From Oscillospiraceae bacterium (GTDB taxonomy: Bacteria > Bacillota > Clostridia > Oscillospirales > Ruminococcaceae): a stretch of DNA of 64,000 nucleotides. Position numbers and translations under genes: made by a program. The notes under the pieces are model-generated. The model was given only the letters and a program-made list of their open reading frames with translations. It was not told where the DNA came from and searched no databases. Each line of letters begins with the position of its first letter. The first letter of the stretch is position 1. The stretch spans positions 51,623 to 115,622 of the forward strand of contig JAISZR010000001.1 in NCBI GenBank assembly GCA_031284525.1, read 5' to 3'. Shown here in pieces: positions 1,943 to 58,118 of the stretch.

Positions 1943-2005
1943 AGAAGCTAAGTTTGGTGATGGTCTGGACGGCTTGGGTAAATTGCGCTTGGTGGGAGTT
2001 TGGGT

Positions 2006-3781: not shown

Positions 3782-3786
3782 AGAAG

Positions 3787-5692: not shown

Positions 5693-5701
5693 GGGATTCG
5701 G

Positions 5702-7452: not shown

Positions 7453-7471
7453 AAAAATGCAGTGAAGGGAG

Positions 7472-8788: not shown

Positions 8789-8821
8789 GATTTTTTAGTT
8801 TAATGTAAAGGTGGTGATTTT

Positions 8822-9706: not shown

Positions 9707-9764
9707 ACGCCACGTGAATTTGACTTTTGTGCGATAAATTGTTGAGGAAAGGAGGGGTTGGAAC

Positions 9765-10190: not shown

Positions 10191-10281
10191 GGCTGGACCT
10201 TTTTAGGAAGCCCGGAGAAGTTTTGAACGACAGAGAAACTTCAAAAAGTGAGAAAATTGAAACTAAAAGGGAGATGTAAAA

Positions 10282-11646: not shown

Positions 11647-11657
11647 TTACCCTTTTT

Positions 11658-11693
11658 GCTGGCGGTGGCTAGCCATCGCCAGCAGGCCGCGGA
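11658..11693 (+). terminator. Strong GC-rich hairpin between flgE and fliM, without a T-tract (attenuator or mRNA-stabilising element?)
   Basis: gctggcg-g-tggc-ta-gcca-t-cgccagc forms an extended imperfect stem, 12 nt after the flgE stop. No downstream U-run. Confidence 0.35.
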
Positions 11694-11762
11694 TCTGGGT
11701 TCCGTTGTGACCTTGCACACGAGTTTGCAGGAAGCGAGTAGTTAGGGAGGAGTTTTTCTAAA

Positions 11763-12734: not shown

Positions 12735-12774
12735 AAGAACATAAGGTCCTGCGAAGAATTTGAAAAGGGGGCTT

Positions 12775-13989: not shown

Positions 13990-13995
13990 AAAGGA

Positions 13996-14337
13996 TTGTT
14001 TTGTTTGAGTGATGTTTGCAGCGGACTGTTATCTTTTGTTGGCGTTGTGGGATTGTTTGCTCTCCTTTTCTTTTTTTGTAAAAAATTGCAATCGGGGAAC
14101 ATTGTCGGTGTAACATCGAGCAAGTATATGGTTGTGGTGGATAAGGTCGCGCTTGGTCCGAGTAGTTCTCTTGCTATTGTGAAAATAGGGGGCAAATATT
14201 ATCTTGCCTCCGTGTCGGGCGCGGGAGTGACTTTGCATGGCAACATTGAACAATCTGATCTTGTTGAAGCACAGAGGCGCACCGTGGGTCTAGGTAAGTT
14301 GCGGTTTCGCGGCAAAATGTCGAAGGGTGAGTTGTAG
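13996..14337 (+). CDS. fliO: Flagellar biosynthesis protein FliO (FliZ)
   Basis: Single N-terminal TM helix plus a small soluble domain (LAIVKIGGKYYLASVSGAGV). Position immediately before fliP. Start uncertain (TTG at 13996 or 14005). Confidence 0.7.
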   Translation: MFCLSDVCSGLLSFVGVVGLFALLFFFCKKLQSGNIVGVTSSKYMVVVDKVALGPSSSLAIVKIGGKYYLASVSGAGVTLHGNIEQSDLVEAQRRTVGLGKLRFRGKMSKGEL

Positions 14338-14361
14338 GTTACGATTGGGATGTGAATCTTT

Positions 14362-15093
14362 TTGAAAAAGCTTTTGAAACCTCTGCTTTTGCTGGTCTTT
14401 GGGTTTGTTGTTTGCAACAATTTGGCTTCCGCTGCAGGAATTTCTGTTAATGTGGATGGAAGAGACACTGGGCCGCTAGACATTCTTTTTCTATCAACGC
14501 TGCTTACGTTATTACCAACAATTGTCTTGCTGATGACCTGTTTCACAAGGATAGTGATTGTGTTTTCTTTTTTGAAAAATGCGATGGGGACGGCGCAGGT
14601 GCCGCCTACTCAAGTGGTAGTTGGCCTTTCACTTTGTCTCACTTTGTTCGTCATGTCTGGGCCTGTTAAGCAAATAGAAAACGAAGCTTACAGGCCGTAT
14701 AAGGCGGGACAGATTAATGGTGAGCAAGCGCTCTTAAAGGCGGCGGAACCACTAAAAAGATTCATGTGCAACAACACACGAAAAGAAGATCTAGCGTTGT
14801 TTATGAAAATTAGCAAAACGCCGCCGGTCAAGGATTTTAGAGATTTAGAGATGATAACTGTTGTTCCGGCGTTTGTTGTTAGTGAAATCAGAACGGCCTT
14901 TGTGATAGGTTTTAGTTTGTTTATCCCGTTTATCGTGGTAGATATGGTGGTTTCCAGCATTTTAATGTCCTTGGGAATGGTGATGCTGCCACCCGCGATG
15001 ATATCCTTACCGTTTAAGATTTTGCTGTTCATTTTGGCCGATGGTTGGGGGATGTTGATCAAGTCTTTGGTCGAGGGTTTTAAGATGGGTTAG
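14362..15093 (+). CDS. fliP: Flagellar export apparatus protein FliP
   Basis: Signal-like N-terminus, then FTRIVIVFSFLKNAMGTAQVPPTQVVVGLSLCLTLFVM and PAFVVSEIRTAFVIGF, both conserved FliP blocks. Confidence 0.95.
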   Translation: MKKLLKPLLLLVFGFVVCNNLASAAGISVNVDGRDTGPLDILFLSTLLTLLPTIVLLMTCFTRIVIVFSFLKNAMGTAQVPPTQVVVGLSLCLTLFVMSGPVKQIENEAYRPYKAGQINGEQALLKAAEPLKRFMCNNTRKEDLALFMKISKTPPVKDFRDLEMITVVPAFVVSEIRTAFVIGFSLFIPFIVVDMVVSSILMSLGMVMLPPAMISLPFKILLFILADGWGMLIKSLVEGFKMG

Positions 15094-15133
15094 GTAATTT
15101 TTTGATCAACGATTTAAAGAGGGGCGATAGTTA

Positions 15134-15403
15134 GTGACAGAAGATACAGTTTTGAATTTGTTTAACAGCGCGGTTTTGGTGGCGTTCAAGTTGTCACTTC
15201 CAATTCTTCTTTCTAGCATGGTGTTGGGGTTGATAGTCTCTATGTTTCAGGCAGCAACTCAAATTCACGAACAGACTTTGACGTTTATTCCAAAGATTAT
15301 TTTGCTGGGAGTGATGTTGGTTGTCTTGGGTCCGTGGATGCTGAGGCTGTCCACGGAGTTTTTTGGAGAGGTTTTCATGTTTATAAGAGAGACCAGCAAG
15401 TAA
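15134..15403 (+). CDS. fliQ: Flagellar export apparatus protein FliQ
   Basis: 89-aa two-TM protein. VSMFQAATQIHEQTLTFIPKI is the FliQ signature. Confidence 0.93.
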   Translation: MTEDTVLNLFNSAVLVAFKLSLPILLSSMVLGLIVSMFQAATQIHEQTLTFIPKIILLGVMLVVLGPWMLRLSTEFFGEVFMFIRETSK

Positions 15404-15413
15404 GGGATAGAAA

Positions 15414-16184
15414 ATGGATAAGCTTGTGGATAATTATCAACTGTTTCTGCTGATTCTAGCGCGGATGATTGGTTTTGTGTTCATGAATCCCTTTTTTGGA
15501 AAGAGCAACGTCTTCTCGCTGATCAGAGTTGGGATTGCAGGTATTTTGTCCTTTACGGTTTTTTTTAATTTTGATGTCACAGAAAATCTTTCAAATGGCG
15601 TGCTTGTGTTTGGGCTGATGTTTTGTTTGGAGTTTTTCTGGGGGTTTTTGCTCTCTTTTGTTGTTGATCTAGTTCTTTCTGCAATAATTTTTGGTGGTGA
15701 GCTTTTCGATATGCAGATGGGTCTTTCTATGAGCAAGTTTTACGACCCGTCTTCTGGTGCAGAGTTGCCAACAACAGGTGCGTTGATCAGAGTTTTGTTT
15801 ATGATTACCTTCTTTTTGACCAGCTCGCATGTTCATTTGATTGATATCATAATAAAGTCATATCAGGCGTTGCCGATTGGCAAATGGCCTGGTTTGGGTG
15901 CATTTTCCTACATACTGACGCTCAACAAAGATGTTTTGACTATGGGACTTAAAATGGCAATGCCAATGATTGCTGCCGTTTCAATTATGGATATCGGAAT
16001 CGGTGTGTTGATGAGGACAGTGCCACAATTGAATGTCTTTGTTTTGAATATATATATAAAGTTTGTGGTAGGGTTTTTGCTCTTGTTGAAACTAAGTCCC
16101 AGCTTTATAGGGTTTTCGCATATGTTAGCAGATAAGATGTTTTTAGGAATGGAAAATTTGCTAGCTTTGGCTGTGAAGGTGTGA
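15414..16184 (+). CDS. fliR: Flagellar export apparatus protein FliR
   Basis: 256-aa polytopic membrane protein between fliQ and flhB. FDMQMGLSM motif. Confidence 0.9.
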   Translation: MDKLVDNYQLFLLILARMIGFVFMNPFFGKSNVFSLIRVGIAGILSFTVFFNFDVTENLSNGVLVFGLMFCLEFFWGFLLSFVVDLVLSAIIFGGELFDMQMGLSMSKFYDPSSGAELPTTGALIRVLFMITFFLTSSHVHLIDIIIKSYQALPIGKWPGLGAFSYILTLNKDVLTMGLKMAMPMIAAVSIMDIGIGVLMRTVPQLNVFVLNIYIKFVVGFLLLLKLSPSFIGFSHMLADKMFLGMENLLALAVKV

Positions 16185-16216
16185 AAAATTGATTCTAAAA
16201 GCAAAGTTGGTGGATA

Positions 16217-17296
16217 ATGCCGCAACAAAATAAAACCGAAAAAGCGACCCCAAGGCGACGTCAGGAACAGAGAAAGGAAGGGCGAACTGCTCAGAGTCAA
16301 GATCTAACCCTTGTTCTTTCCCTGTTTGGTGTGTTCTGCACAATTAAACTGTTTATGCCATATGCAACTGTTTTCATAAAGGACTATTATGTTTATGTGA
16401 TGGAGAACCTGAGCTCCTTGGTGAAAGATGGGTTGGTGGGGCAGCGGCCTTTTTTGATCAAGACCGTTTCGTGTTTTTTCTTGTCGGCATTTCCCATTAT
16501 TTTGGTCGCGGGACTTTGCGGAGTACTTTTTACGGGGTTGCAGACTGGGTTTTTGGTTTCAAAAAAAGCGATGGCGTTTAAATTTTCGCATTTTAATCCT
16601 GTTAACGGGTTTAAAAATATGTTTTCGGGCAGGGCTTTTGTGAAGTTGGCTTCGGCGAGCCTTAAAACAGTAGTCGTGGGTTGGGTACTCTACTTGGGTT
16701 ATCGTAAATCAGCGGAATCGTTCGCTTGTTTGATAGATGTGGATTTGGGCTGTGGGATATTGTTCATCGTAAAAGAACTCAGTAGAATTGTGTTTAACCT
16801 ATTTTTGGCGCTGTTGGGGATTGCGGCCTTTGATTACTTTTATAATTGGTGGTCCTTTGAAAAGAGCATTAAAATGACGAAACAAGAAGTTAAAGAGGAA
16901 TATAAACAGCTCGAAGGAGACCCGCAGATAAAAGGTTTCATAAGACGTCGGCAGCGGCAGCTCGCACGGAGTAGGATGATGCAAATGGTCCCCAAGGCTG
17001 ATGTGGTAATAAGAAACCCCACTCACTTTGCCGTGGCACTTAAGTATGAGCAGGAAAAAGATTTTGCACCAAAGGTGATTGCAAAAGGAGCCGATAATGT
17101 TGCGCTCAAGATAATTGAGATTGCAAAAGAGAGTGATGTTCCGATTATTGAGGATAAATCGTTGGCGCGTACTCTTTATAAGAGTGTGAAGCTTGGAAAG
17201 ATGATTCCATCTGAAACGTTTAAAGCTGTGGCAGAAGTTCTGGTTTGGGTTTACAGGATGAAAAAAAAGAATCTTGAAATGGAAGAGTTGGTCTAA
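16217..17296 (+). CDS. flhB: Flagellar export switch protein FlhB
   Basis: N-terminal QNKTEKATPRRRQEQRKEGRTAQSQDL and the autocleavage site NPTHFAVAL (NPTH). 359 aa. Confidence 0.96.
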   Translation: MPQQNKTEKATPRRRQEQRKEGRTAQSQDLTLVLSLFGVFCTIKLFMPYATVFIKDYYVYVMENLSSLVKDGLVGQRPFLIKTVSCFFLSAFPIILVAGLCGVLFTGLQTGFLVSKKAMAFKFSHFNPVNGFKNMFSGRAFVKLASASLKTVVVGWVLYLGYRKSAESFACLIDVDLGCGILFIVKELSRIVFNLFLALLGIAAFDYFYNWWSFEKSIKMTKQEVKEEYKQLEGDPQIKGFIRRRQRQLARSRMMQMVPKADVVIRNPTHFAVALKYEQEKDFAPKVIAKGADNVALKIIEIAKESDVPIIEDKSLARTLYKSVKLGKMIPSETFKAVAEVLVWVYRMKKKNLEMEELV

Positions 17297-17325
17297 ACTG
17301 TGAGTAATACGAAAGGTGAGGGCAA

Positions 17326-19392
17326 ATGAGAAGGTTGACGGCATTGATTCCAGTATTTGTTGTCTTTGTTGTGTTGCTGATTTTGATACCGCTGCCAACT
17401 GGCTTACTGGACACCATGTTTGTGCTGAACATAACGGTGTCGGTGATTATGCTTTTAACGACTATGTACATTAGGGATACTCTGCAGTTTTCAATTTTGC
17501 CGACACTATTGCTTATCACGACGGTGGCGAGGATTGCACTCAATGTCTCTTCCGCCAGATTGATTCTTTCTAACAGCGGCAAGGCGGGCAAGGTTATCAA
17601 GACGTTTGGTGATTTTGTGCTTGGTGGAAACGTAGTGGTCGGTTTTGTTGTGTTTTTGATTATTATTGCCGTTCAGTTTTTCGTTATTGTTAAAGGTTCC
17701 GAAAGAGTTGCCGAGGTTGCAGCGAGGTTTACTTTGGACGCGATGCCAGGGAAGCAGATGGCCATTGATGCAGATCTTAGTGCTGGAATAATCAATGAGC
17801 AAGAAGCTGTGGCAAGGCGCCAGAAGGTTCAGCGCGAGGCAGATTTTTTTGGTGCTATGGATGGTGCTTCAAAGTTCGTTAAGGGAGATTCGATTCTTTC
17901 TATTCTTGTGGTGGTTGTTAATTTTGTCGGCGGGTTGATTGCCGGCATGGTTCAGGGAGGTCACAGCTTTAATGAGGTGCTGAATATCTATTCTATTGCC
18001 ACGGTCGGCGATGGGCTTGCTTCTCAGTTGCCGTCGCTCATGATCTCGATTGCAACAGGAATTGTTGTAACTAGGGCGGCCTCAAACGAAAGTTTTGATG
18101 TTGATATTTCCAGACAGTTTTTGTCGCAGCCATATGCGCTTATCATCACGGGTGGTGTTTTGCTTTGTTTTATCGCGATTCCTGGGTTCCCCAGGCTTGC
18201 ACCAATCACAATCGGAAGCTTGTTGATTTTCTTGGGTTTGCGTTTGCTGCGGGCTTCAAATGCTTCCGTGTCTGAGGCGGCTGCTGCTGATACCGAGTTG
18301 TCGCACCGGCCGCTCAGGGAGGCCGAGTACTACAAAAATCCAGAAAATATTTACGATTTGATTGCGGTTGAACCAATGGAAATGGAGCTTGGATATAGTC
18401 TCATTGCAATGGTAAATAAAAAGAATGGCACGAGCAGTTTTGTAGATCGGATTGTTATGTTGCGCAAACAGTTTGCGGTGGAGACAGGGATGGTATTCCC
18501 AACAGTAAGGCTGCGTGATAACAGTTTGATAAGCCCGAATCAGTATATCATCAAAGTAAAAGGTGAAGAGGTTGCAAGGGGCGAGGTTTTGATAGATTAC
18601 TACTTGGCGTTGGACCCCGGAAATGTTAAGGGGGAGATTGAGGGGATAGATGTTGTGGAGCCGGCTTACGGGATTCCAAGTAAGTGGATTTTGAGGTCAG
18701 AAAAAGAAAACGCGGAAGTTTTGGGTTACACCTTGATAGATCCGGTTTCGGTGATTATAACTCACCTGTCGGAAGTCATTAAGCATCACGCGTTTGAGTT
18801 GCTTGGCAAGAAAGATGTGGAGAATTTGCTCGAGAATGTTAAGAAGACGGGCCGGGCTTCTTTGGAGGGAGTTGTTCCAGATTATATCTCGCTAGTAGAT
18901 TTTCACAAGATACTTTCAAACTTGCTCAAAGAGTTCGTGCCGATAAAAGATATGGAAACGATCATTGGTGTGGTGGCAGAAAATGCGGTGACGGTAAAAG
19001 ATGTTGATGTGTTGACGGAATGTGTGCGACAGGCTTTGAAGCGGACAATAACGAGAACCTTCACAAAGGACGGAAGTTTGGTTGTGATTGCCCTTTCTCC
19101 TAGAATAGAAAAGCTTGTAATGGGGAATGTGAAGAGGGCGGAGAATAAAACTTATCTGCACCTCGAGCCGGAGATTGTGACAGAAATTGTGGAAGGCGTC
19201 AAAGCTCAGATTGATAAACATAAGAACCTGCTTACAACGCCGATAATTTTAACTTCTTCTGCTATCAGGGTTTATGTTAGCAGGTTGCTTGAACAATTTA
19301 TCCCGAATGTTGCTGTTCTTTCGTTTAGTGAAATTGAAAATTCGGTACAGATTCTTGCGATTGGCAATGTTGATTTGAAAGAGGCGAGTTGA
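17326..19392 (+). CDS. flhA: Flagellar export gate protein FlhA
   Basis: 688 aa. FVIVKGSERVAEVAARFTLDAMPGKQMAIDADL and the FHIPEP region are conserved. Confidence 0.97.
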   Translation: MRRLTALIPVFVVFVVLLILIPLPTGLLDTMFVLNITVSVIMLLTTMYIRDTLQFSILPTLLLITTVARIALNVSSARLILSNSGKAGKVIKTFGDFVLGGNVVVGFVVFLIIIAVQFFVIVKGSERVAEVAARFTLDAMPGKQMAIDADLSAGIINEQEAVARRQKVQREADFFGAMDGASKFVKGDSILSILVVVVNFVGGLIAGMVQGGHSFNEVLNIYSIATVGDGLASQLPSLMISIATGIVVTRAASNESFDVDISRQFLSQPYALIITGGVLLCFIAIPGFPRLAPITIGSLLIFLGLRLLRASNASVSEAAAADTELSHRPLREAEYYKNPENIYDLIAVEPMEMELGYSLIAMVNKKNGTSSFVDRIVMLRKQFAVETGMVFPTVRLRDNSLISPNQYIIKVKGEEVARGEVLIDYYLALDPGNVKGEIEGIDVVEPAYGIPSKWILRSEKENAEVLGYTLIDPVSVIITHLSEVIKHHAFELLGKKDVENLLENVKKTGRASLEGVVPDYISLVDFHKILSNLLKEFVPIKDMETIIGVVAENAVTVKDVDVLTECVRQALKRTITRTFTKDGSLVVIALSPRIEKLVMGNVKRAENKTYLHLEPEIVTEIVEGVKAQIDKHKNLLTTPIILTSSAIRVYVSRLLEQFIPNVAVLSFSEIENSVQILAIGNVDLKEAS

Positions 19393-19431
19393 TCGGTCCC
19401 TATTGAGAACTGTAAAGAGAAGTGAGACAGT

Positions 19432-20187
19432 ATGACGGAAGATGTTGCAACTGATAATGAGATGTGGAAACTTTATTGCCAGACGAAGGATGCTAAACTC
19501 CGAGATAGACTAGTGATACGATATGCAGGATTGGTGAAGGGGATTGTCCTAAAGATGCGGGGTATCTATAACGATTCGGATACTGATGATATTATAGGGC
19601 ACGGAATGATAACTCTTGTGGAGTGTGTTGATAGATTCGATTATGTCCGCGGGATAAAGTTCGAGACTTTTGCGTCAATTAGAATTCGAGGGAATGTTAT
19701 TGATTATTTGCGGCAACAGGATTGGGTACCAAGAAATCTTAGAAAAGAAGCCAAGAAAGTAGAAAAAGCTTTTACAGATCTGGAGTGTGATGATGATGAA
19801 AGGCTAGAAGAAAAAGTCGCGAGTTACCTAGGTACCACGGTAGAGAATGTGCGAAAGCTTATGAGTGAAATAAATAAATTCAATATTATATCTTATGAAG
19901 AGTTGGTTTATGATGCTCTCAGTGGTACGCAAGTGGAAATCCAAGATACAACGAATACGGGGGTTCCAGATAGTGAATTGCTCAAAAAGGAATTCTTAGA
20001 ATATCTGACAGCGGCACTTGAAGAACTTCGGGCGAGAGAAAAATTGATCTTGGCGCTATATTATAGTGAGACATTAAAGCTCAAAGAAATAGCCGAGATA
20101 ATAGGGGTCACGGAATCGAGAGTTTGTCAGATTCACGGCGAGTCACTAAAAAAACTTAAAGAATCCTTGGAGATATATTTGAAATAA
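19432..20187 (+). CDS. fliA: Flagellar RNA polymerase sigma factor (sigma-28, FliA/SigD family)
   Basis: Sigma-70 regions 2, 3 and 4 are recognisable (RLVIRYAGLVKGI..., FETFASIRIRGNVIDYLR, LKEIAEIIGVTESRVCQIH). Position after flhA. Confidence 0.88.
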   Translation: MTEDVATDNEMWKLYCQTKDAKLRDRLVIRYAGLVKGIVLKMRGIYNDSDTDDIIGHGMITLVECVDRFDYVRGIKFETFASIRIRGNVIDYLRQQDWVPRNLRKEAKKVEKAFTDLECDDDERLEEKVASYLGTTVENVRKLMSEINKFNIISYEELVYDALSGTQVEIQDTTNTGVPDSELLKKEFLEYLTAALEELRAREKLILALYYSETLKLKEIAEIIGVTESRVCQIHGESLKKLKESLEIYLK

Positions 20188-20206
20188 GAAATGAGGAGGA
20201 AATTTT

Positions 20207-20968
20207 ATGGCTATTCTAAGTAGTTTTTACCCTGTGGCCTCAGCAGTGCTGACTTATGAGAATGAGGTTGACAAGTGTATAGAAAATGCAGCGAACACGC
20301 ATACTATAGGATTTAAAGGTAGCATGTACAGGACAGAGTCGATGCCCGAGCATATTAGATTGCGGACGAATGGTTCTGAGCGTGTGCAGATTGGTGAGGG
20401 CAGTGACGGTATCTACAGCGGCAAGGTTGTTACCGATTTTTCGGAAGGTGAGCTTGTGGAAACCGCAAGGCCGCTGGACTTTGCTATCACCGGGAATGCG
20501 TTCTTTAGGTTAATTGGTGAAGATGATAAAATTAAAGTAACGCGAGCCGGAAATTTACATTTGGATGATGAAGGGTATTTGGTGGCCCCAAGTGGAGAAA
20601 AGGTGATGGGGGCCGATGGAGCCGCGATATTGCTGCGGACTGATCAAGTTGTATTAGGTGGGGATGGGGCACTGGTAGATAAGGACGGTCAGTCTCTGGG
20701 TAAGATTGGGGTTTGGGTGGTTAAAGATGAAAAAGAACTTGAAAGAACGGATGACAATTGTTTTATAGCAAAAACAATAGAGCTTGTTGAACTGCCGAGT
20801 AACGATGCAGCGCTCCGTCAATGTGTGCTGGAAGAGAGCAATGTTGATCCTGTGCCAAACACGCTCTCGATTGCGAAATATTCGCAGGGGTTAGGGTATT
20901 ATACAAACGTCGGGGGGATGACAAAAAAAATGGATGAAAGAATTAATGAGATTGTGTCACAAAGATAG
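20207..20968 (+). CDS. flgF: Flagellar basal-body rod protein, FlgF/FlgG family (divergent)
   Basis: N-terminal IENAANTHTIGFK and C-terminal LEESNVDPV... rod-protein boxes. Paired with the next gene, as in Clostridia. Confidence 0.7.
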   Translation: MAILSSFYPVASAVLTYENEVDKCIENAANTHTIGFKGSMYRTESMPEHIRLRTNGSERVQIGEGSDGIYSGKVVTDFSEGELVETARPLDFAITGNAFFRLIGEDDKIKVTRAGNLHLDDEGYLVAPSGEKVMGADGAAILLRTDQVVLGGDGALVDKDGQSLGKIGVWVVKDEKELERTDDNCFIAKTIELVELPSNDAALRQCVLEESNVDPVPNTLSIAKYSQGLGYYTNVGGMTKKMDERINEIVSQR

Positions 20969-20985
20969 TCAAAGGAGGCTACATA

Positions 20986-21726
20986 ATGATGAGTGGTATG
21001 TCTATGATTAGGAGCGGGGTACGGTTCCAAGAGGCTGCAATTGAGAATGCGGCTAACAATGGGGCTTCTTCGAACAGCGTAGGTTTTTCAAAAAGGTACT
21101 TCTTCTCTGTTGATAAAAAGCATGGCAAATTGACCGCGAGCAACAATGCGCAAGATAAGGGTACAAGTGTTGGAATTGACTCTTATTCGCCTTTTGAGCA
21201 GGGAGACTTAAGGGAAGTATCTAATCCTTTGTGTTATTCTATAACTGGGAGCGAAGGGTACTTTAAGTTGGAAGACGACGATGAGAATGTTCTTTTCACA
21301 CGGGCCGGGGATTTTGAGCTAGTGAAGGTAAAAGAAACAGATGAGAAAACTGGCGAAAAGAAAGAGGTCTTCTATCTTGGGCATGGCGATGGTTTCTTTG
21401 TGATTGGTTCAGATGGTAAAAGAATAAAATATGACCCAAACAACGATACAGAAGAGCTTGATATTGGAGTTTTTGACGTGGCGGAGCACTACAAGATGTT
21501 GCCGGTTGGAGAATCTAGATTTGTTTATAAGGGGTTGGGAGAACCCTCGTTGGATAAGAATGCTGAAATAGAACAGAATTCTTTGGAGATTCCTAGGGTT
21601 GACATGCCGGGTGAAGCTGTAGATTTGGCAAGACGCTCCAACGATTTTGCAGTTTTGCTGAGGGCGTTTGAGAAGAAGAGAGAAGCAGGTGATAAGATGA
21701 TTGGTGTTTTGGGTGGTGGCCGTTAG
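20986..21726 (+). CDS. flgG: Flagellar basal-body rod protein, FlgG family (divergent)
   Basis: N-terminal QEAAIENAANNGASSNSVGFS and a C-terminal LEIPRVDMPGEAVDLARRSNDF rod-type heptad region. Confidence 0.65.
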   Translation: MMSGMSMIRSGVRFQEAAIENAANNGASSNSVGFSKRYFFSVDKKHGKLTASNNAQDKGTSVGIDSYSPFEQGDLREVSNPLCYSITGSEGYFKLEDDDENVLFTRAGDFELVKVKETDEKTGEKKEVFYLGHGDGFFVIGSDGKRIKYDPNNDTEELDIGVFDVAEHYKMLPVGESRFVYKGLGEPSLDKNAEIEQNSLEIPRVDMPGEAVDLARRSNDFAVLLRAFEKKREAGDKMIGVLGGGR

Positions 21727-45678: not shown

Positions 45679-46953
45679 TCAAATCACATTTAAAGCCACT
45701 TTTCCCCCGCTGCTAATAAGATTCTCAAAATTGAAGGTTTTTGCAAGTTTTTTCCTCATCTTTTCTGCCATTTTTGCCGCTTTGCCGGCCGTTGTCACGA
45801 GGTCACCAGGGCGGACCCAAGTATGATTGTATTCCGTGTAGATAAGGCCACTTGGACCCACAGGGCCCCAAGAACTACTTTCGAGATTCCCATTGCAGGT
45901 CTTGTTAATCAGATCTGTGTCGCCGCAGAGAATAATAAGCCCTTCAAGTGGATTAAAATTTCCGAAGGGAGGGTTCCAAGTAAAGCCATCTAGGTTAATT
46001 TTTTGATGGTCCCGTGATTTCATCTTAATTCGGATTGTGGGATTCGATGTTGTTGTGGTCGGTGTTACCGGATTTGGAGAGGATCCAGGTGAGGCCGAGG
46101 GTGTACGCGGCTTGAGTAATTGTGTGAATAAATCTTGATGTGTTGAATCTGAACGCACAGTCCGACTCAGTTCTTGTGAATACATTTCTCGTTCCTGTTG
46201 AGGAATTAACGATGAAGGTGCGGGAGATGTAGCTCTGGAGAGTGGTATGGGAGACACTTCTGTACTAAGGGAAGCGGGAGGTAGATATGAATGCGAAGAT
46301 AGAGACGAAGACGAAGAAACAAACGATTTAGATTGAGAGCCTCTTGGAGAAGAAACTTGTTTGTCATTTTCTGTTACAGCATACGAAGTTGGTGAATGAT
46401 AAACAGAGCAGGTGCTAAGGGAGTTACTAAGGGAAAGGCTGTTAAGGACGGGGGCGAGAGATTCCGGTGCCGGCTCACTAAGGTTGGGGAGAAGAGAAGT
46501 CGATGACAAGTTGACCCTTGGCGAATTTGGAATGATTTCATAGAAATCTGGTGGAACTTCTTGATACTCATACCTAGCTGGCCCACAAATAAAATATACA
46601 CAATGTTTATCGAGGTCCAATATAGAGTGCGCATGCAGAACATAGAAATGGGCGACATCAGTAAGTAAATATATTTCAAGCTTTTCTCTATACGCCATAA
46701 ATCTCCGTTCCAATTCACTTTTCACTGCCCGGGGGCAAATTTCTCTGGCCCTTTCTATTGTCATCTTGCAAGATCCAAAATGGCGATTGACTTCTGCAAT
46801 CTTTTCCATGAGTTCTTCCTTTGTAAATTCTTCATCACAACAGCTACAACAGTCAAACGGACCAGCGTGAGTGGGTACAGACATTTCTGCAAAGACAAGT
46901 AACCCGAGTACAATGCCCAGAATAGATTTTTTCGGTTTGTGATAGGCATACAT
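45679..46953 (-). CDS. Secreted protein of unknown function: signal peptide, CCSCC cluster, N-terminal domain, long Ser/Pro/Thr-rich linker, C-terminal domain
   Basis: N-terminal KKSILGIVLGLLVFAEMSVPTHA signal-like sequence. Low-complexity S/P/T stretch over roughly residues 150-325. I recognise no family motif. Confidence 0.6.
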   Translation of the reverse strand: MYAYHKPKKSILGIVLGLLVFAEMSVPTHAGPFDCCSCCDEEFTKEELMEKIAEVNRHFGSCKMTIERAREICPRAVKSELERRFMAYREKLEIYLLTDVAHFYVLHAHSILDLDKHCVYFICGPARYEYQEVPPDFYEIIPNSPRVNLSSTSLLPNLSEPAPESLAPVLNSLSLSNSLSTCSVYHSPTSYAVTENDKQVSSPRGSQSKSFVSSSSSLSSHSYLPPASLSTEVSPIPLSRATSPAPSSLIPQQEREMYSQELSRTVRSDSTHQDLFTQLLKPRTPSASPGSSPNPVTPTTTTSNPTIRIKMKSRDHQKINLDGFTWNPPFGNFNPLEGLIILCGDTDLINKTCNGNLESSSWGPVGPSGLIYTEYNHTWVRPGDLVTTAGKAAKMAEKMRKKLAKTFNFENLISSGGKVALNVI

Positions 46954-47433: not shown

Positions 47434-47466
47434 AAAAAAAATAGGCCGCAGCTGCATAGCTACGGC
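47434..47466 (-). terminator. Rho-independent terminator closing the AAA+/small/Gly-rich operon
   Basis: Minus strand: gccgtagc-tatgca-gctgcggc (8 bp, one G-U), followed by ctaTTTTTTTT. Confidence 0.6.
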
Positions 47467-47571
47467 TCATCAGAATTTTGTAATGCGCCTACATAGGCGA
47501 ACATCCCCAACGACACGGTTAGTGTGATTGCATGGCATTCACAGTCAGTTGGCCCGTTTGGTTGCGCCTTT

Positions 47572-47946
47572 TTAGTTGCCCGTCAATCCTCCCACTATTT
47601 GCATGATACTATCTACCAAGCCGCCGTTTTTGCTGTTGCTAAAATCTCCGATCTTTCCTTGTATTTTATCTAGGAAGCCTGTTCCTACACTTTCTAGGCC
47701 ACCGAGTTCCTTATCAAAAGCGCCGCCGGTCGCTTCGTTAATTCCTCCTCTTGCACTATCCCAGCCGGCACTCAGTGCGTTTCGTCCTTTTCCAAAAGCT
47801 CCTTTCAGACCACCACCCAATAGTTTTCCACCGCCGAATGCTTTTTTCGCTGCTCCAAAGGCGTCTCCTCCAACTTTTTTTACTGTTTTCCACGCACTAG
47901 AGGCGCCTTTCTTTACCTTTCCTACCATGTCAGAAAACCAACTCAT
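47572..47946 (-). CDS. Gly/Lys-rich 124-aa protein of unknown function (repeated xAFG/GG motifs)
   Basis: Strong SD AAAGGGGGAAGG 4 nt before the ATG. By hand count 30 of 124 residues are Gly and 15 are Lys, with no Cys, Pro, His or Tyr. No signal peptide or TM helix. Same strand and operon as the ATPase. Confidence 0.65.
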   Translation of the reverse strand: MSWFSDMVGKVKKGASSAWKTVKKVGGDAFGAAKKAFGGGKLLGGGLKGAFGKGRNALSAGWDSARGGINEATGGAFDKELGGLESVGTGFLDKIQGKIGDFSNSKNGGLVDSIMQIVGGLTGN

Positions 47947-47984
47947 AAAACCTTCCCCCTTTGAGTGATTTATTTAGTTTCCGC

Positions 47985-48173
47985 TCAACTCTCCAAAATC
48001 TTTTGCTTTTCCCGCTCGAATGCCTTTCCCAAGGAACTCAAGTAATAGACAAATTCGCTGTTTTTCCAGGATGTGCACTCTTTCATTAAAAAATGTACAT
48101 CGGCAAAAAATTCGCTATCAAAGGCTTCTAGCAGTTTACTCTGTTTTTCTGTCATCCCCCTTTGCAATCTCAA
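47985..48173 (-). CDS. Small (62-72 aa) predicted helical protein of unknown function
   Basis: Lies between the ATPase and the Gly-rich gene, in frame with the ATPase stop. The start is uncertain: TTG 48173, ATG 48155, or a rare ATT at 48203 that sits 8 nt after a GAGGAGG SD. Confidence 0.45.
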   Translation of the reverse strand: MRLQRGMTEKQSKLLEAFDSEFFADVHFLMKECTSWKNSEFVYYLSSLGKAFEREKQKILES

Positions 48174-48221
48174 AATGTTTCTGAAAAAGGCTAACGCATT
48201 AATTAATATCGCCTCCTCAAG

Positions 48222-50432
48222 TTAACCAAAGTCGAAAACCTCGGCTGGAACAATTCTCCCAAGCTTTTGACATTCATATCTTACTGCATCGAGAATAAGA
48301 TGCATTGTTATTTCTTCATTTTTGCCGGCAGCCGAATACGCCGCAAGGATCGCAATTGATTTTATACTGCTACCATTTAATTCGAACTTTTCCGCCAAAT
48401 TGGATGCATCAAAATCTGAACAAAGAGGTGCTTTTTGCGGGAAGACTCTCTCCCAAAGCAACCTTCTCATCTCAACAGAAGGTGCTGGGAAGTTAACTAC
48501 AAACTTAATCCTTCTTCTAAAAGCATCATCGAAATTATTGAATTTGTTCGTTGTTAAAATTGAAACGCCATTGTATTCTTCCATTTGTTGAAGCAAAAAT
48601 GATATCTCATTGTTTGAGAATTTGTCATTGGAACTCTTAACATCTGTCCGTTTTCCAAATAAAGAATCCGCTTCATCAAACAACAAGATCGAATTACTTG
48701 TCTTTGCCTCTGCGAAAATATCTTTGAGGTTTTTTTCGGTTTCTCCAACATATTTATTCATAATCTGCGACACATCGACCTTGTAAAGTTGCAGATCTAG
48801 TTCATTTGCAATAACCTGTGCTCCCATTGTTTTCCCAGTTCCCGGCGGACCATAAAATACCATGCTAAGTCCTCTACCATATGCCACTTTGGAACCAAAA
48901 TCCCAACTTTCATAAACAACGTCTTTGTATTTGATATAGTTACATGCGTCCATCAATACTTTTTTCTGACTTTCCTCAATAACGAGATCATCAAAAGTGT
49001 ATTTGCAATTTATCAGTACTGCTTTTCTTTCGAGGTTGTGCACAGAGAATGTTTTACACACATCTGTTAATGCATCACTCTTTATACCACTGTTTGCTTT
49101 TCCAAAAGAGAGAGCTCTCGCTTTTTGCAATATGGTTTTCATTTGTCCAGCCGTATAGTTGAATTTGTTCGCTATGTTTTTGAAGTCGACCTCATCCTGA
49201 AACGTGTGCTTTTGCGATAAGTTATTCCACATCTGCAAACGCTCAGCCAAATTCAATGGTTTAACTTCTAAGTCAACAAATGGTTTATATCTGCTATAAT
49301 TTGAGATTGGGAACTTAGGAGAGTTATTCAAAGCAAAAACTAAATTGTCAGAGCCAAACAACATGTCAAAAATGAGCCCCAGCCCAGCCATGTCGCTTTC
49401 TGCAATATTCACATTATAAAGGCATATCAATTTTTTGAAGACTGCCTCAAATGCCAAAACTCCTGACAGATAAACCGCTCTATCGAGTCCAACACTGAGC
49501 AGATACGCAAAATCGACAAAAACAACCGACATGCCCAGCTTTTTTGCAACATGCTGCACATGGAATTTTTTGCCTGCGCCCTCTTCCCCAAAAATGTGGA
49601 TTAATTTATTCGGCACCTTAGTATCCAAGATATTTTCAACCGTCTGAAGAAGGAAATTGTTAAATTCTTTCCCCACAACGAGGTCTTCTAACGCATCTGA
49701 AGGCGAACAACAATAAACAAACTTTTCGGTTGTAAGGTCTACCCCAGAATCACCTATGAATAGGCTAACAATCCGGCGTCTCAGTGATATTTCTATCATC
49801 AGTGACGATCTTGGCCTTTCTTTATCCAGATCCACTAGCATATGTGAAACCAAAGAGTTATTCAATGTTTTGTAGATATCTAAAACATCAAGTTGTTCTG
49901 TCATTAGGGATAACGCAAGTGCAAGTCCGTATGTGGGCAATTTGGCGGTATTATCATCTTGGATATATGCGAACAGTCTTTCGTACTTTCTGTCAAGCTC
50001 AATTGCCAAACCGGTCAAAATACATAATTTTTCAAGCAGCGAAAGATTATGGCAACTAAAAAATTCCGCCATTGGCAAGCGCACATTTGTGGTTTTTTGA
50101 GTTCTGTTTTCAAGATGCTCCCACGCGTGTTTTAAACTTTTCACCATGATGCTTGGAACTTTGTTTTCCCTGTTCTTGAGCTGAGATGCGAGTACAATGT
50201 TCTCCACTTCGTCGTCGGTTATAACTATCCCTCTGAAGGAAAACGACTTAATCATCTCCGCACCGCCGCTGACCTTCCTGTTTTCATTGCGCAGCTTCAG
50301 CGCGACATCAACATAAAGATCCAGTAGTGCTTTTATATCACGCAGATATTCGTCATTCGAAGAATAAGCCTTGCCAAAGTCAGCGTTATTAAAATAAAGC
50401 TCATAAAGTTCCGTGTCGCCAAGGAATCTCAC
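48222..50432 (-). CDS. Tandem AAA+ ATPase (N-terminal helical region, degenerate D1, canonical classical-clade D2)
   Basis: D2 has Walker A GPPGTGKT, Walker B ILLFDEAD, sensor-1 TTN and arginine fingers AFRRRI. D1 keeps GEEGAGKK but has no hhhhDE. GTG start follows GAGGTG. Confidence 0.85.
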   Translation of the reverse strand: MRFLGDTELYELYFNNADFGKAYSSNDEYLRDIKALLDLYVDVALKLRNENRKVSGGAEMIKSFSFRGIVITDDEVENIVLASQLKNRENKVPSIMVKSLKHAWEHLENRTQKTTNVRLPMAEFFSCHNLSLLEKLCILTGLAIELDRKYERLFAYIQDDNTAKLPTYGLALALSLMTEQLDVLDIYKTLNNSLVSHMLVDLDKERPRSSLMIEISLRRRIVSLFIGDSGVDLTTEKFVYCCSPSDALEDLVVGKEFNNFLLQTVENILDTKVPNKLIHIFGEEGAGKKFHVQHVAKKLGMSVVFVDFAYLLSVGLDRAVYLSGVLAFEAVFKKLICLYNVNIAESDMAGLGLIFDMLFGSDNLVFALNNSPKFPISNYSRYKPFVDLEVKPLNLAERLQMWNNLSQKHTFQDEVDFKNIANKFNYTAGQMKTILQKARALSFGKANSGIKSDALTDVCKTFSVHNLERKAVLINCKYTFDDLVIEESQKKVLMDACNYIKYKDVVYESWDFGSKVAYGRGLSMVFYGPPGTGKTMGAQVIANELDLQLYKVDVSQIMNKYVGETEKNLKDIFAEAKTSNSILLFDEADSLFGKRTDVKSSNDKFSNNEISFLLQQMEEYNGVSILTTNKFNNFDDAFRRRIKFVVNFPAPSVEMRRLLWERVFPQKAPLCSDFDASNLAEKFELNGSSIKSIAILAAYSAAGKNEEITMHLILDAVRYECQKLGRIVPAEVFDFG

Positions 50433-50605
50433 AGTGTCACCTCACATATGCCACAAAAAAACATCACTTTAAAAAATATCAAATGTTGTTTTCATACAAA
50501 ATACTGCTGTATATGGTAACACATGTTTAAGGATTTCGCAAGTGCAGTGGATGCTAGTATATGAACATATTATTAATTTTTATTCTGTGAAAGGCACTAA
50601 TTCAG

Positions 50606-57958: not shown

Positions 57959-58035
57959 GGCGGTATAGCTCAGCTGGTTAGAGCATTCGGTTCATACCCG
58001 GAGGGTCGTTGGTTCAAATCCAACTACCGCTACCA
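57959..58035 (+). tRNA. tRNA-Met (CAT), elongator type, CCA encoded
   Basis: Folded by hand: acceptor GGCGGTA/TACCGCT, anticodon arm TTCGG-TTCATAC-CCGGA, T arm GTTGG-TTCAAAT-CCAAC. No initiator features. The loop GGTTCATACCC matches Bacillus elongator tRNA-Met. Confidence 0.9.
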
Positions 58036-58043
58036 CAGCGTTT

Positions 58044-58118
58044 GGTCCGTTGGTCAAGAGGTTAAGACACCGCCCTTTCACGGCGGAATCGGGGGTTCAA
58101 TTCCCCCACGGATCACCA
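58044..58118 (+). tRNA. tRNA-Glu (TTC), CCA encoded
   Basis: Acceptor GGTCCGT/ACGGATC, anticodon arm CCGCC-CTTTCAC-GGCGG, T arm GGGGG-TTCAATT-CCCCC. Confidence 0.9.

What the first reader, a model, noticed from the sequence alone, without database searches (positions are those of the whole stretch)
47434..50432. Unassigned three-gene operon (tandem AAA+ ATPase, 62-72 aa helical protein, 124-aa Gly/Lys-rich protein) set among housekeeping genes
**Seen in sequence**
- Three co-directional minus-strand ORFs with short gaps: at most 48 nt, then 38 nt.
- Each has a strong purine-rich SD: GAGGTG before 50432, GAGGAGG just after the ATPase stop, and AAAGGGGGAAGG before 47946.
- The unit is closed by a hairpin plus T8 terminator at 47434-47466.
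- Flanks are core genes: dnaB-tilS-pseG upstream, and a secreted protein, a kinase-like gene and uvrA downstream.
- No integrase, transposase or phage gene is nearby.

**Established knowledge**
Classical-clade AAA+ proteins are substrate-specific unfoldases or loaders. ATPases with this layout (N-terminal helical region, dead D1, live D2) are known from extracellular contractile injection system (eCIS) loci (Afp15/Pvc15), where they load cargo.

**Inference**
- The ATPase may act on the co-transcribed Gly-rich protein (remodelling, loading or release), with the small helical protein as adaptor, chaperone or immunity factor.
- Alternatively the trio is a toxin or defence module.
- I know no described system with this composition, so this is my top candidate for novelty.
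Basis: partly seen in the sequence, partly recalled or inferred. Interest (0 to 1): 0.8.

Follow-up and report, generated by a model that had tools for sequence, protein, structure and literature searches.

The report
Stand-alone injection-system ATPase with two partners
A gut Clostridia genome carries the cargo-loading motor protein of phage-tail-like injection machines without the machine nearby, always paired with two unknown small proteins, so the motor may have been recruited for a different, still unknown job.

Summary
The three co-directional minus-strand genes are real and end at a strong terminator. They are under purifying selection.

**The ATPase.** The 736-aa protein belongs by sequence to the Afp15/Pvc15/Alg15 family, the cargo-loading AAA+ unfoldases of extracellular contractile injection systems (eCIS). 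It has a PF22977 N-domain, a degenerate D1 and an intact D2. It is 27-31% identical, over most of its length, to ATPases inside genuine eCIS operons.

**A detached clade.** It falls in a small clade from Oscillospiraceae and Ca. Soleaferrea (42-99% identity within, 24-38% to all others). No member has an eCIS structural gene within 8-10 kb, nor does the 64-kb window. The clade sits in several housekeeping neighbourhoods.

**The partners.** Both are found only in this clade:
- a ~56-75-aa helical protein with an invariant Asn-Ser motif;
- a 52-242-aa Gly/Lys/Ala-rich protein with a conserved N-terminal tag (MGF-x-x-K-I-K-G) and a basic front half.

Neither matches Pfam, NCBIfam, PADLOC or PDB. 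The Gly-rich protein has two relatives among 1.84 billion proteins.

**Reading.** Most likely this is an eCIS-derived unfoldase acting on its own tagged, disordered client, helped by a helical cofactor. I could not test whether an injection system lies elsewhere in the genome. Verdict: a new variant of a known kind.

The parts
50433..50605 (-). 5' intergenic region holding the likely promoter and leader of the operon, and the GAGGTG Shine-Dalgarno at 50443-50438
   Evidence: About 170 nt are strongly conserved against L002 even though the upstream gene differs. The region contains TTGCGA-N17-(TG)T-TACCAT (read by eye, inference). The consensus scan lists a different weak site at 50591-50564.
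48222..50432 (-). 736-aa eCIS-type (Afp15/Pvc15/Alg15 family) tandem AAA+ ATPase
   Evidence: Pfam PF22977 and PF00004. 31% identity over aa 37-728 to the Nostoc eCIS ATPase (E 4e-110) and 27% over aa 130-728 to a Serratia Afp15 homologue (E 4e-65). AF2 model with mean pLDDT 70, aligned over about 540 columns to p97/Cdc48 D1+D2. dN/dS 0.06.
49749..50381 (-). N-terminal winged-helix-variant domain (aa 18-228) with the family motif LDRKYERLF (aa 146-154)
   Evidence: PF22977, E 8e-19. The motif is shared with eCIS-linked relatives. No PDB sequence relative for aa 1-470.
49083..49625 (-). Degenerate D1 AAA domain (about aa 270-450): Walker A-like GEEGAGKK (282-289), with ICLYN (336-340) in place of a Walker B acid
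   Evidence: Alignment of 99 family members. Secondary structure of the AF2 model. The same deviation is described for Pvc15 D1 (PMC11495950).
48486..48863 (-). Active D2 AAA domain (aa 524-649): Walker A GPPGTGKT (K534), Walker B LLFDEAD (E587), pore loop K560-Y561, sensor-1 N629, Arg fingers R640/R641
   Evidence: PF00004, E 3e-33. All motifs are invariant in the 10 clade members.
47985..48203 (-). Small helical protein, proposed 72 codons (ATT 48203); annotated as 56 aa from ATG 48155; 62 aa from TTG 48173. Hydrophobic N-terminus (INALAFFRNIL) and invariant N-S in KNSEFVYYL
   Evidence: The family HMM hits only loci of this ATPase clade. dN/dS 0.05. No match in Pfam, NCBIfam, PADLOC, PHROGs or PDB.
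47572..47946 (-). 124-aa Gly/Lys-rich low-complexity protein with the N-terminal tag MSWFSDMVGKVKKG, a basic N-half (+10) and an acidic C-half (-3)
   Evidence: The family HMM and the tag pattern are found only in this ATPase clade. Two relatives in 1.84e9 proteins. AF2 single-sequence model is all helical at pLDDT 57. Weak tape-measure PHROG hit, E 9e-5. dN/dS 0.31.
47434..47466 (-). Intrinsic terminator closing the operon
   Evidence: 9-bp stem with 6 G-C pairs, 4-nt loop, then a T-run.
45679..46953 (-). Possible accessory gene: 424-aa Cys-rich secreted or anchored protein with its own promoter. It co-occurs with the trio only in the closest sub-clade.
   Evidence: Homologues lie next to the trio in L002 (two copies) and L004. 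Absent in the prmC-linked sub-clade. No Pfam family. Promoter-like site at 47068-47040, 11 of 12 matches.

Best explanation
The operon encodes a self-contained protein-unfolding module descended from the cargo loader of extracellular contractile injection systems.

**Proposed mechanism**
- The ATPase forms a p97-like double-ring hexamer. D1 only binds nucleotide or scaffolds the ring, and D2 hydrolyses ATP.
- Through its N-domain and D2 pore loops, the ATPase recognises the conserved N-terminal tag (M-G/S-F-F/L-x-K-I/V-K-G) of the co-encoded Gly/Lys-rich, largely disordered or amphipathic protein.
- It threads that client, either keeping it unfolded and soluble or dismantling or handing over its assemblies.
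- The tightly conserved helical protein acts as cofactor or adaptor on the ATPase.
- In this lineage the module works without a neighbouring contractile particle, and probably independently of one.

**Shown:** family membership of the ATPase, intact catalytic motifs, clade-specific and conserved linkage of the three genes, absence of eCIS genes nearby, and purifying selection.

**Inferred:** which protein is client and which is cofactor, tag recognition, independence from an eCIS, and the cellular purpose.
For: **ATPase identity**
- Pfam gives PF22977 plus AAA.
- The best annotated relatives sit inside eCIS operons, with baseplate, tail, DUF4157, tape-measure and DUF4255 genes around them.
- By blastp clustering, 49 of the 80 genome relatives had a core eCIS gene in the flank: Pvc16_N cap, sheath, gp19 or CIS tube, Tail_P2_I or DUF4280. 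HMMs built from the clusters added further loci.

**Separate clade**
- Identity is 42-99% within the clade and 24-38% to all others.
- No locus of the clade has a hit to any eCIS-cluster HMM, and neither does the 64-kb window.
- Members lie in different core-gene contexts: tilS/uvrA, Asp23/FakA, prmC with rpsO-pnp, and murA.

**Partner genes**
- The helical family is present in 10 of 11 lineages.
- The tagged Gly-rich family is present in all 10 lineages where downstream sequence exists.
- Neither is detected in about 90 eCIS-type loci.
- In L003 the helical gene has moved upstream but stays attached to the ATPase.

**Function retained**
- D2 motifs are invariant, and D1 lacks the Walker B acid as in Pvc15 (PMC11495950).
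- dN/dS is 0.06, 0.05 and 0.31 for the three genes.

**Analogy with characterised loaders**
- Pvc15 and Alg15 are non-structural unfoldases. They recognise disordered N-terminal loading sequences that are not conserved between systems and are thought to be specific to each ATPase.
- The third protein has exactly such a conserved N-terminal tag on a low-confidence, low-complexity body.
- In L010, the closest eCIS-linked relative, the ORF just after the ATPase starts MNEFFSKLFKSK. This resembles MGFFSKIKGKAK.

**Distribution**
- No copy was found in viral contigs.
Against: - There is no direct evidence that the three proteins interact.
- The only demonstrated role of this ATPase family requires a contractile particle. 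I could not scan the rest of any host genome, so an eCIS encoded elsewhere is not excluded.
- The AF2 model of the Gly-rich protein is low confidence (pLDDT 57), so 'disordered client' is not established.
- L004 lacks the helical gene, and L003 has only a 52-aa third ORF.
- The N-terminal resemblance to the L010 ORF rests on a single case, and no significant alignment supports homology (BLAST E 2.1, hhalign probability 0.1).
- About 19 other family members also lack detectable eCIS neighbours, several of them on short contigs. Detachment is therefore not unique to this clade and may have a mundane cause.
Confidence: 0.4

Rival explanations
1. Trans-acting cargo loader. The biochemical step is the same, but the ATPase serves an eCIS encoded elsewhere in the genome. 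The Gly/Lys-rich protein is a small cargo (or lumen filler) loaded into the tube through its N-terminal loading sequence, and the helical protein is its chaperone.
For: - Cargo loading into the tube is the only demonstrated function of the family.
- The third protein has the hallmarks of a loading sequence: N-terminal, low complexity, clade-specific.
- It gives weak but recurrent tape-measure-type profile hits. These are the window's phrog_8462 at E 9e-5, L002 at 0.025, L005 at 0.043, and L091 Pfam Pre_tape_measure at 0.064. This fits a protein that occupies a tube lumen.
- Oscillospiraceae do carry eCIS (L019, L025, L075).
- According to PMC6899500, more than 85% of eCIS-like loci encode at least eight core subunit types including Afp15, so a minority may lack one.
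Against: - No eCIS gene lies within 8-10 kb in any of about 11 contexts, or in the 64-kb window.
- The module is stably placed next to core genes (prmC or tilS) across lineages. From general knowledge, eCIS are patchily distributed accessory loci.
- The eCIS of related Clostridia carry their own in-operon ATPase.
- For the two species representatives that hold the trio (L008, L009), no second family ATPase appeared among the best 80 of 580 hits.
- The third protein has no effector domain.
Confidence: 0.25
2. Toxin or defence module. The cationic amphipathic Gly/Lys-rich protein is a membrane-active toxin or bacteriocin-like peptide. The helical protein is its immunity factor or antitoxin, and the ATPase activates, exports or neutralises it.
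For: - The N-half is strongly basic (+7 to +10) with amphipathic segments (muH up to 0.56), and the C-half is acidic, like a pro-peptide.
- It evolves faster than its neighbours (dN/dS 0.31) and varies in length and repeat number.
- PADLOC's best hit for the ATPase is IetA.
- From memory, the N-terminus resembles leaderless bacteriocins and frog antimicrobial peptides.
Against: - The PADLOC and NCBIfam hits cover only the generic AAA domain. IteA scores 101.6 against a cut-off of 510, and no IetS-like partner is present.
- There is no bacteriocin Pfam match.
- There is no transporter, protease or mobile-element gene in the unit.
- The setting is the core genome with an apparently vertical pattern, not a defence island.
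- The helical protein is far more conserved than the supposed toxin.
Confidence: 0.12
3. Cell-biological remodeller. The Gly-rich protein coats or bends membranes through an N-terminal amphipathic helix, as PspA/Vipp1 and ESCRT-III do. The ATPase then recycles it, as Vps4 does, for example during sporulation or envelope stress.
For: - The N-terminus (MGLFSRL, MGFFSKIKG) resembles membrane-targeting amphipathic helices of PspA/Vipp1 (from memory).
- The ATPase is of the classical clade, with CdvC/Vps4-type hits.
- The module is a conserved core-genome operon in spore-forming Oscillospirales, with spoIIR a few genes upstream in L099 and L101.
Against: - There is no sequence or profile similarity to PspA or ESCRT-III.
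- The ATPase N-domain is the eCIS WHD type, not MIT.
- The hydrophobic moment of the first 18 residues is only moderate, 0.32-0.56.
- The spoIIR proximity is not part of the operon.
Confidence: 0.1
4. Decaying remnant of an eCIS locus, or an operon of convenience: the small ORFs have no functional tie to the ATPase.
For: - L003 has a shortened third ORF, and the window's helical gene has lost its canonical start.
- One member (P0003) abuts degraded phage-tail genes.
Against: - Purifying selection is strong on the ATPase and the helical gene (0.06 and 0.05).
- Catalytic motifs are invariant across 42%-identical members.
- The linkage survives several rearrangements and changes of genomic context.
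Confidence: 0.05

Closest known systems
Afp15 / Pvc15 / Alg15 (Cis15), the AAA+ cargo-loading ATPases of extracellular contractile injection systems
   Same: - Same three-part architecture: PF22977 N-domain, degenerate D1 without a Walker B acid, and an active D2 with a DEAD Walker B, a K-Y pore loop, sensor-1 Asn and a double Arg finger.
- 27-31% identity over nearly the full length to members inside real eCIS operons (PMC11495950).
   Different: - It is not encoded in or near an eCIS operon.
- It forms a separate clade (no more than 38% identity to eCIS-linked members).
- It is fixed next to housekeeping genes.
- It is always linked to two small proteins that are not found in eCIS loci.
eCIS cargo proteins with N-terminal disordered loading sequences (Pnf, Pdp1, Afp18, AlgoCIS Cgo1/2)
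   Same: - The third protein has a conserved N-terminal tag on a low-complexity, low-confidence body and is encoded just downstream of the ATPase.
- Published loading sequences are disordered, 50-70 aa long, and specific to each system.
   Different: - It is only 52-242 aa long, with no effector or DUF4157 domain.
- No injection particle lies nearby.
- The tag is conserved across the clade, whereas known loading sequences show little conservation.
p97/Cdc48-type tandem AAA+ unfoldases with N-domain cofactors
   Same: The predicted fold aligns over D1+D2 with p97/Cdc48, Afg2 and Rix7. A small dedicated cofactor binding the N-domain is a plausible role for the helical protein (inference).
   Different: The N-domain is unrelated (a winged-helix variant, not a double-psi barrel). 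D1 is catalytically degenerate. No ubiquitin-like system is involved.
Phage and eCIS tape measure proteins
   Same: Similar Gly/Ala/Lys-rich helical low-complexity composition. Weak profile hits to tape-measure PHROGs and to Pfam Pre_tape_measure in four family members. In eCIS operons the tape measure gene sits next to the ATPase.
   Different: - It is five to ten times shorter.
- phmmer found no tape-measure relative among 1.84e9 proteins.
- The family HMM hit no ORF in any of the eCIS loci.
- The signal may be purely compositional.

Membership tests
eCIS AAA+ ATPase (Afp15/Pvc15/Alg15, 'Cis15') | N-terminal domain of the PF22977 (WHD variant) type preceding the AAA modules | tested here: met
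   PF22977, E 8.4e-19, 68.5 bits against a cut-off of 27, aa 18-228. The motif LDRKYERLF is shared with eCIS-linked members.
eCIS AAA+ ATPase (Afp15/Pvc15/Alg15, 'Cis15') | Tandem AAA with a catalytically degenerate D1 and an active classical-clade D2 (Walker A GxxGxGKT, Walker B DEAD, K-Y pore loop, sensor-1 N, two Arg fingers) | tested here: met
   D1 has GEEGAGKK and ICLYN. D2 has [24 protein letters not shown] and FRRRI, all invariant in the clade. The AF2 model aligns to p97 D1+D2. This matches the Pvc15 description.
eCIS AAA+ ATPase (Afp15/Pvc15/Alg15, 'Cis15') | Near full-length sequence similarity to ATPases encoded in verified or typical eCIS operons | tested here: met
   Nostoc pn3: 31% over aa 37-728, E 4e-110. 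Serratia proteamaculans Afp15 homologue: 27% over aa 130-728, E 4e-65. The operon contexts were checked.
eCIS AAA+ ATPase (Afp15/Pvc15/Alg15, 'Cis15') | Encoded within an eCIS operon (next to cap/Pvc16, tape measure, sheath, tube, baseplate genes) | tested here: not met
   No eCIS-cluster HMM hit in the 64-kb window or in any of the clade's loci with 8-10 kb flanks. By clustering, 49 of the 80 genome relatives had a core marker, and HMMs added more.
eCIS AAA+ ATPase (Afp15/Pvc15/Alg15, 'Cis15') | Required for loading tagged cargo into the tube lumen of a contractile particle | not testable with these tools
   This needs genetics and biochemistry.
eCIS cargo with N-terminal loading sequence | Disordered N-terminal signal of about 50-70 aa, recognised by the cognate ATPase | tested here: inconclusive
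   There is a conserved N-terminal tag and a basic low-complexity N-half. The AF2 model has pLDDT 57 and is helical at low confidence. Recognition was not tested.
eCIS cargo with N-terminal loading sequence | Effector or toxin domain (for example DUF4157/eCIS_core or an enzymatic domain) and a location downstream of the structural operon | tested here: not met
   No Pfam, NCBIfam or PADLOC family. No structural operon nearby.
Tape measure protein | Significant profile match, and a length of several hundred residues that scales with tube length | tested here: inconclusive
   The window protein hits phrog_8462 at E 9.3e-5 and phrog_1535 at 5e-3. Other members hit at 0.025-0.064. However, the proteins are only 93-184 aa, and phmmer against 1.84e9 proteins found only two orthologues.
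IetA/IteA (IetAS defence), SpoVK, CdvC/Vps4, PAN, FtsH | Whole-protein score above the curated equivalog cut-off, plus the cognate partner or domains | tested here: not met
   Scores against cut-offs: IteA 101.6/510, CdvC 96.6/650, SpoVK 29.7/423, FtsH 60/600. All matches cover only aa 476-717, the generic D2. There is no IetS, MIT or protease domain.
Leaderless bacteriocins / cationic amphipathic peptides | Match to a bacteriocin family, and 40-55 aa mature size with an export or immunity gene set | tested here: not met
   No Pfam or NCBIfam hit at E <= 1. The resemblance (MSWF...KKGASSAWK) is from memory only. No transporter is present in the unit.

The most novel reading that the evidence does not exclude
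A hallmark component of contractile injection systems has been domesticated in gut Oscillospirales as a particle-independent, chromosomally fixed unfoldase system. It has its own N-terminally tagged, membrane-active or polymer-forming disordered client and a dedicated helical cofactor. That would make it a new cellular AAA+ pathway, for example tail-less protein handling, membrane remodelling or a sporulation-linked process, rather than a secretion accessory.
Probability: 0.3. Interest if true: 0.75.

Novelty: new variant of a known kind. Interest (0 to 1): 0.6.

Why it matters
**For eCIS biology.** Afp15/Pvc15/Alg15-type ATPases are treated as signature genes of extracellular contractile injection systems. 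Their only known job is to unfold tagged cargo for loading into the tube.

A conserved clade that has left the injection operon, and has instead acquired two private small partners, would have two consequences:
- The loader can work, or has been re-used, outside a particle. This would caution against using the ATPase as an eCIS marker in Clostridia.
- It would offer a minimal three-protein system in which to study how this ATPase family recognises N-terminal loading tags. That question is currently open and limits the engineering of eCIS as protein-delivery tools.

**For gut Clostridia.** If the Gly/Lys-rich client proves to be membrane-active or polymer-forming, the module would also be a new piece of cell biology in uncultured gut Clostridia.

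Tried and rejected
**Known family names for the ATPase.** SpoVK, IetA/IteA, CdvC/Vps4, PAN and FtsH were rejected. All score far below their curated cut-offs and match only D2.

**Family searches for the two small proteins.**
- Pfam, NCBIfam and PADLOC gave nothing for either protein.
- PHROGs gave only weak tape-measure hits for the Gly-rich one.
- PDB profile searches gave only chance coiled-coil matches.

**Searches for relatives of the Gly-rich protein.**
- The word-index search found only the protein itself.
- The exhaustive phmmer search found two orthologues.

**Structure predictions.**
- The single-sequence AF2 model of the Gly-rich protein is low confidence, so I ran no fold search on it.
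- The fold search with the ATPase model returned only p97-type AAA proteins. No eCIS ATPase structure is available.

**Collection scans.**
- The metagenome scan with the N-terminal alignment yielded only one more clade member.
- The viral-contig scan found no clade member.

**Possible links that did not hold.**
- Homology between the third protein and the 600-aa ORF after the closest eCIS-linked ATPase (L010) is not supported statistically.
- A link to the neighbouring HATPase_c gene rests on only generic 23% similarity to kinases in other loci, so I dropped it.
- Rfam found no RNA element in the locus.
- No specific sigma-factor motif could be assigned to the promoter region.

**Literature.** Searches for PF22977, for orphan Afp15-like ATPases and for eCIS in Oscillospiraceae found no description of this module.

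**Not possible.** I could not scan the remainder of the host genomes for eCIS genes.

Full report
**1. The observation**

The minus strand of the window carries three consecutive ORFs.
- 48222-50432: 736 aa, GTG start.
- An ORF ending at 47985: 62 aa from TTG 48173.
- 47572-47946: 124 aa, 24% Gly and 12% Lys.

A hairpin with a 9-bp stem and a T-run lies at 47466-47434. The window comes from an Oscillospiraceae MAG. In NCBI the three proteins are MDR2817195.1 ('ATP-binding protein') and MDR2817194.1 and MDR2817193.1 (both 'hypothetical protein').

The flanks are housekeeping genes: tilS, dnaB, rplI, a GT28-like glycosyltransferase, uvrA, and a flagellar operon further away. None of the window's ORFs matches the profiles I built from eCIS structural proteins.

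Two refinements follow.
- **Start of the small ORF.** Its true start is probably upstream of the annotated ATG. Ten further codons are conserved against the orthologue in L002, with only synonymous differences. L002 starts at a TTG that has become TTA in the window. That leaves ATT 48203, 8 nt after GAGGAGG, as the likely start, giving 72 codons.
- **Antisense ORF.** A longer ORF at 47576-47968 (+) is a shadow of the Gly-rich gene. The two frames share wobble positions. Only the sense frame stays open in all homologues.

**2. What the ATPase is**

Pfam finds PF22977 (winged-helix variant, aa 18-228, E 8e-19) and one AAA domain (aa 524-649). NCBIfam and PADLOC hits (IteA/IetA, CdvC, PAN, SpoVK) cover only that AAA domain. 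All are far below their curated cut-offs.

A tblastn search against plasmids gave a Nostoc ATPase as best hit, at 31% identity over aa 37-728. It lies among baseplate, tail and DUF4157 genes. The search also found the Afp15 homologue of Serratia proteamaculans, which sits between the tape measure gene and the DUF4255 cap gene.

An alignment of 99 family members shows two things.
- D2 has every catalytic element: [15 protein letters not shown], the K-Y pore loop, sensor-1 Asn and two Arg fingers.
- D1 keeps a P-loop-like GEEGAGKK but has ICLYN where the Walker B acid should be.

This is the pattern published for Pvc15: an N domain, an inactive D1 and an active D2 with a DEAD box (PMC11495950). 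The AF2 model (pLDDT 70) aligns over about 540 columns with p97/Cdc48 D1+D2. The N-terminal 470 residues have no sequence relative in the PDB.

By sequence and architecture, the protein is a member of the Afp15/Pvc15/Alg15 family.

**3. How it differs from the rest of the family**

I fetched 80 genomic relatives with 10-kb flanks, called ORFs, clustered them and named the recurrent clusters with Pfam. The named clusters were the Pvc16_N cap, sheath, T4 gp19 tube, CIS_tube, Tail_P2_I and DUF4280.
- 49 of the 80 loci show a core eCIS gene by clustering alone. Cluster HMMs add more.
- The relatives at 44% identity or more behave differently: window/L001, L002, L003=L008, L004, L005, L009, L088-90, L091, L093, L099/100 and L101.
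- None of them has any eCIS hit.
- They are 42-99% identical to each other and only 24-38% identical to every other family member.
- Their nearest outside relatives are eCIS-linked ATPases of Bacillota: L010 and L014 (Pelotomaculum).

The neighbourhoods of these relatives are core genes and they vary.
- tilS upstream, with the kinase-like gene and uvrA downstream.
- Asp23/FakA.
- prmC upstream, with rpsO-pnp, a Na/Pi transporter or other genes downstream.
- murA downstream.

The clade is rare. The word-index searches found about a dozen 90%-identity clusters, and one further contig turned up in the JGI metagenome scan. It is absent from viral contigs.

**4. The two partners**

Profile HMMs of the helical protein and of the Gly-rich protein, together with a pattern for the N-terminal tag, were run against all ORFs of at least 30 aa in all 102 loci. 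They hit only this clade.

*The helical protein*
- It is annotated at 56-75 aa across lineages.
- It has a hydrophobic N-terminus (NIFSVIF, NLFSFI, ALAFF).
- It has an invariant Asn-Ser within [KP]NS[DE][FY][VI].
- dN/dS is 0.05.
- It is missing only in L004. In L003 it has moved to just upstream of the ATPase.

*The third protein*
- It is 52-242 aa long.
- It begins M-[GS]-[FWLG]-[FL]-x-[KDN]-[IVM]-[KV]-G.
- In most members the N-half is basic (+7 to +10) and the tail acidic.
- The body is Gly/Ala/Lys/Ser-rich and varies by repeats. L101 has three copies of a 28-residue unit.
- It evolves faster, with dN/dS 0.31.
- It has only two relatives among 1.84 billion representative proteins.

Neither protein has a family in Pfam, NCBIfam, PADLOC or the PDB. 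The AF2 single-sequence model of the third protein is helical but of low confidence, pLDDT 57.

Four members give weak hits to tape-measure profiles. The best is E 9e-5 for the window protein. Given the composition and the negative exhaustive search, I treat this as a lead and not as homology.

**5. Mechanism**

Published work shows that Pvc15 and Alg15 are non-structural unfoldases, and that they are needed to load cargo into the tube lumen. The cargo carries a disordered N-terminal loading sequence, which is not conserved between systems and is thought to be read by the cognate ATPase (PMC11495950; bioRxiv 10.64898/2026.05.27.728243).

The simplest reading of the trio is the same biochemical step on a private client.
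- The hexamer recognises the N-terminal tag of the Gly/Lys-rich protein and threads it.
- The tightly conserved helical protein acts as cofactor.

One observation supports this. In L010, the closest eCIS-linked relative, the ORF immediately after the ATPase starts MNEFFSKLFKSK. It also contains similar Gly/Ser-rich segments. No significant alignment exists between the two proteins.

What happens after unfolding is unknown. I prefer a particle-independent role (0.40) for three reasons.
- The module looks vertically inherited next to core genes.
- Related Clostridial eCIS have their own ATPase.
- No second family ATPase from the two species-representative genomes appeared in the scan.

A trans-acting loader for an eCIS elsewhere (0.25) cannot be excluded, because the rest of the genomes could not be searched. 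Three further readings rank lower: a toxin or defence module (0.12), a membrane remodeller (0.10) and a decaying remnant (0.05). The reasons are given under the rival explanations.

**6. Comparison with what is known, and novelty**

The ATPase is a member of a known family. Three of its defining features were tested and met. One, residence in an eCIS operon, was tested and not met.

The two small proteins belong to no described family. I found no paper describing a stand-alone Afp15-like ATPase with such partners, within the limits of the open-access library.

I classify the locus as a new variant of a known kind. The predicted conserved linkage is there and the eCIS analogy is right. The functional roles, and independence from an eCIS, remain inferences.

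**7. Verdict**

The feature is real and conserved, the motor's family is well established, and two partners are of unknown function. Interest is 0.6. A specialist in contractile injection systems would be moderately surprised by a hallmark loader fixed in the core genome without its machine. The module would be a compact system for studying tag recognition by this ATPase family. The ordinary explanation, a particle encoded elsewhere, remains open.

Noticed in passing
window 45679-46953 (-): A 424-aa protein with an N-terminal signal or anchor, a CCSCC motif, a long Ser/Pro-rich linker and a conserved C-terminal domain. It has no Pfam family. Homologues sit beside the trio in L002 (two copies) and in L004 (216 aa, opposite strand), but not in the prmC-linked sub-clade. 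dN/dS is 0.22.
   Followed up: partly
window 48155-48224 (-): The small helical gene lies in the same reading frame as the ATPase, behind a single TAA. The TTG start used in L002 is TTA here, so the gene needs a non-canonical start (ATT 48203) or the shorter ATG 48155 form. Stop-codon readthrough is formally possible but was not examined.
   Followed up: partly
window 47576-47968 (+): A 130-aa Pro/Ser/Ala-rich antisense ORF exactly overlaps the Gly-rich gene and shares wobble positions with it. It is open only in the window and L002 and is judged a shadow ORF.
   Followed up: yes
L010 4395-6197 (+), then 6166-7315: In the closest eCIS-linked relative, a 600-aa ORF directly follows the ATPase. 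It starts MNEFFSKLFKSKSEDKEKED, continues with an acidic disordered stretch, and then has Gly/Ser/Met-rich segments reminiscent of the orphan clade's third protein. Two YbjN-like genes follow it. No significant alignment to the window protein (BLAST E 2.1).
   Followed up: partly
L037, L042, L044, L045, L068 (also L059, L079): Other family ATPases have no detectable eCIS structural gene within 10 kb. Several of these loci carry two ATPase paralogues. Detached loader genes may therefore be more widespread than this clade.
   Followed up: no
L046, L048, L067, L032, L040, L042: Lachnospiraceae and Oscillospiraceae eCIS-type loci carry regulatory genes next to the ATPase: a STAS anti-sigma antagonist-like gene (~100 aa), an HATPase-type kinase, a response regulator (~229 aa), HAMP- and MORN-containing proteins, and a conserved 70-77-aa ORF just upstream of the ATPase.
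   Followed up: no
L090 1-2433; L088 1-3900: The identical ATPase P0003 occurs in two settings. In L090 it abuts fragmented phage genes (Baseplate_J pieces, a head-tail adaptor). In L088 it lies 6-9 kb from a capsid gene and a diversity-generating retroelement (RVT_1 plus bAvd).
   Followed up: partly
window 2000-21700 (+); 57959-58115 (+): A large flagellar export and basal-body gene cluster with a sigma-factor-like gene, identified only by eye from ORF N-termini. Two adjacent tRNA genes (Rfam).
   Followed up: no
window 50433-50605 (-) versus L002 9830-10000: The roughly 170-nt region upstream of the ATPase is highly conserved between two genomes, although the gene upstream differs (glycosyltransferase versus tilS). 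This suggests a conserved promoter or leader. No Rfam match.
   Followed up: partly
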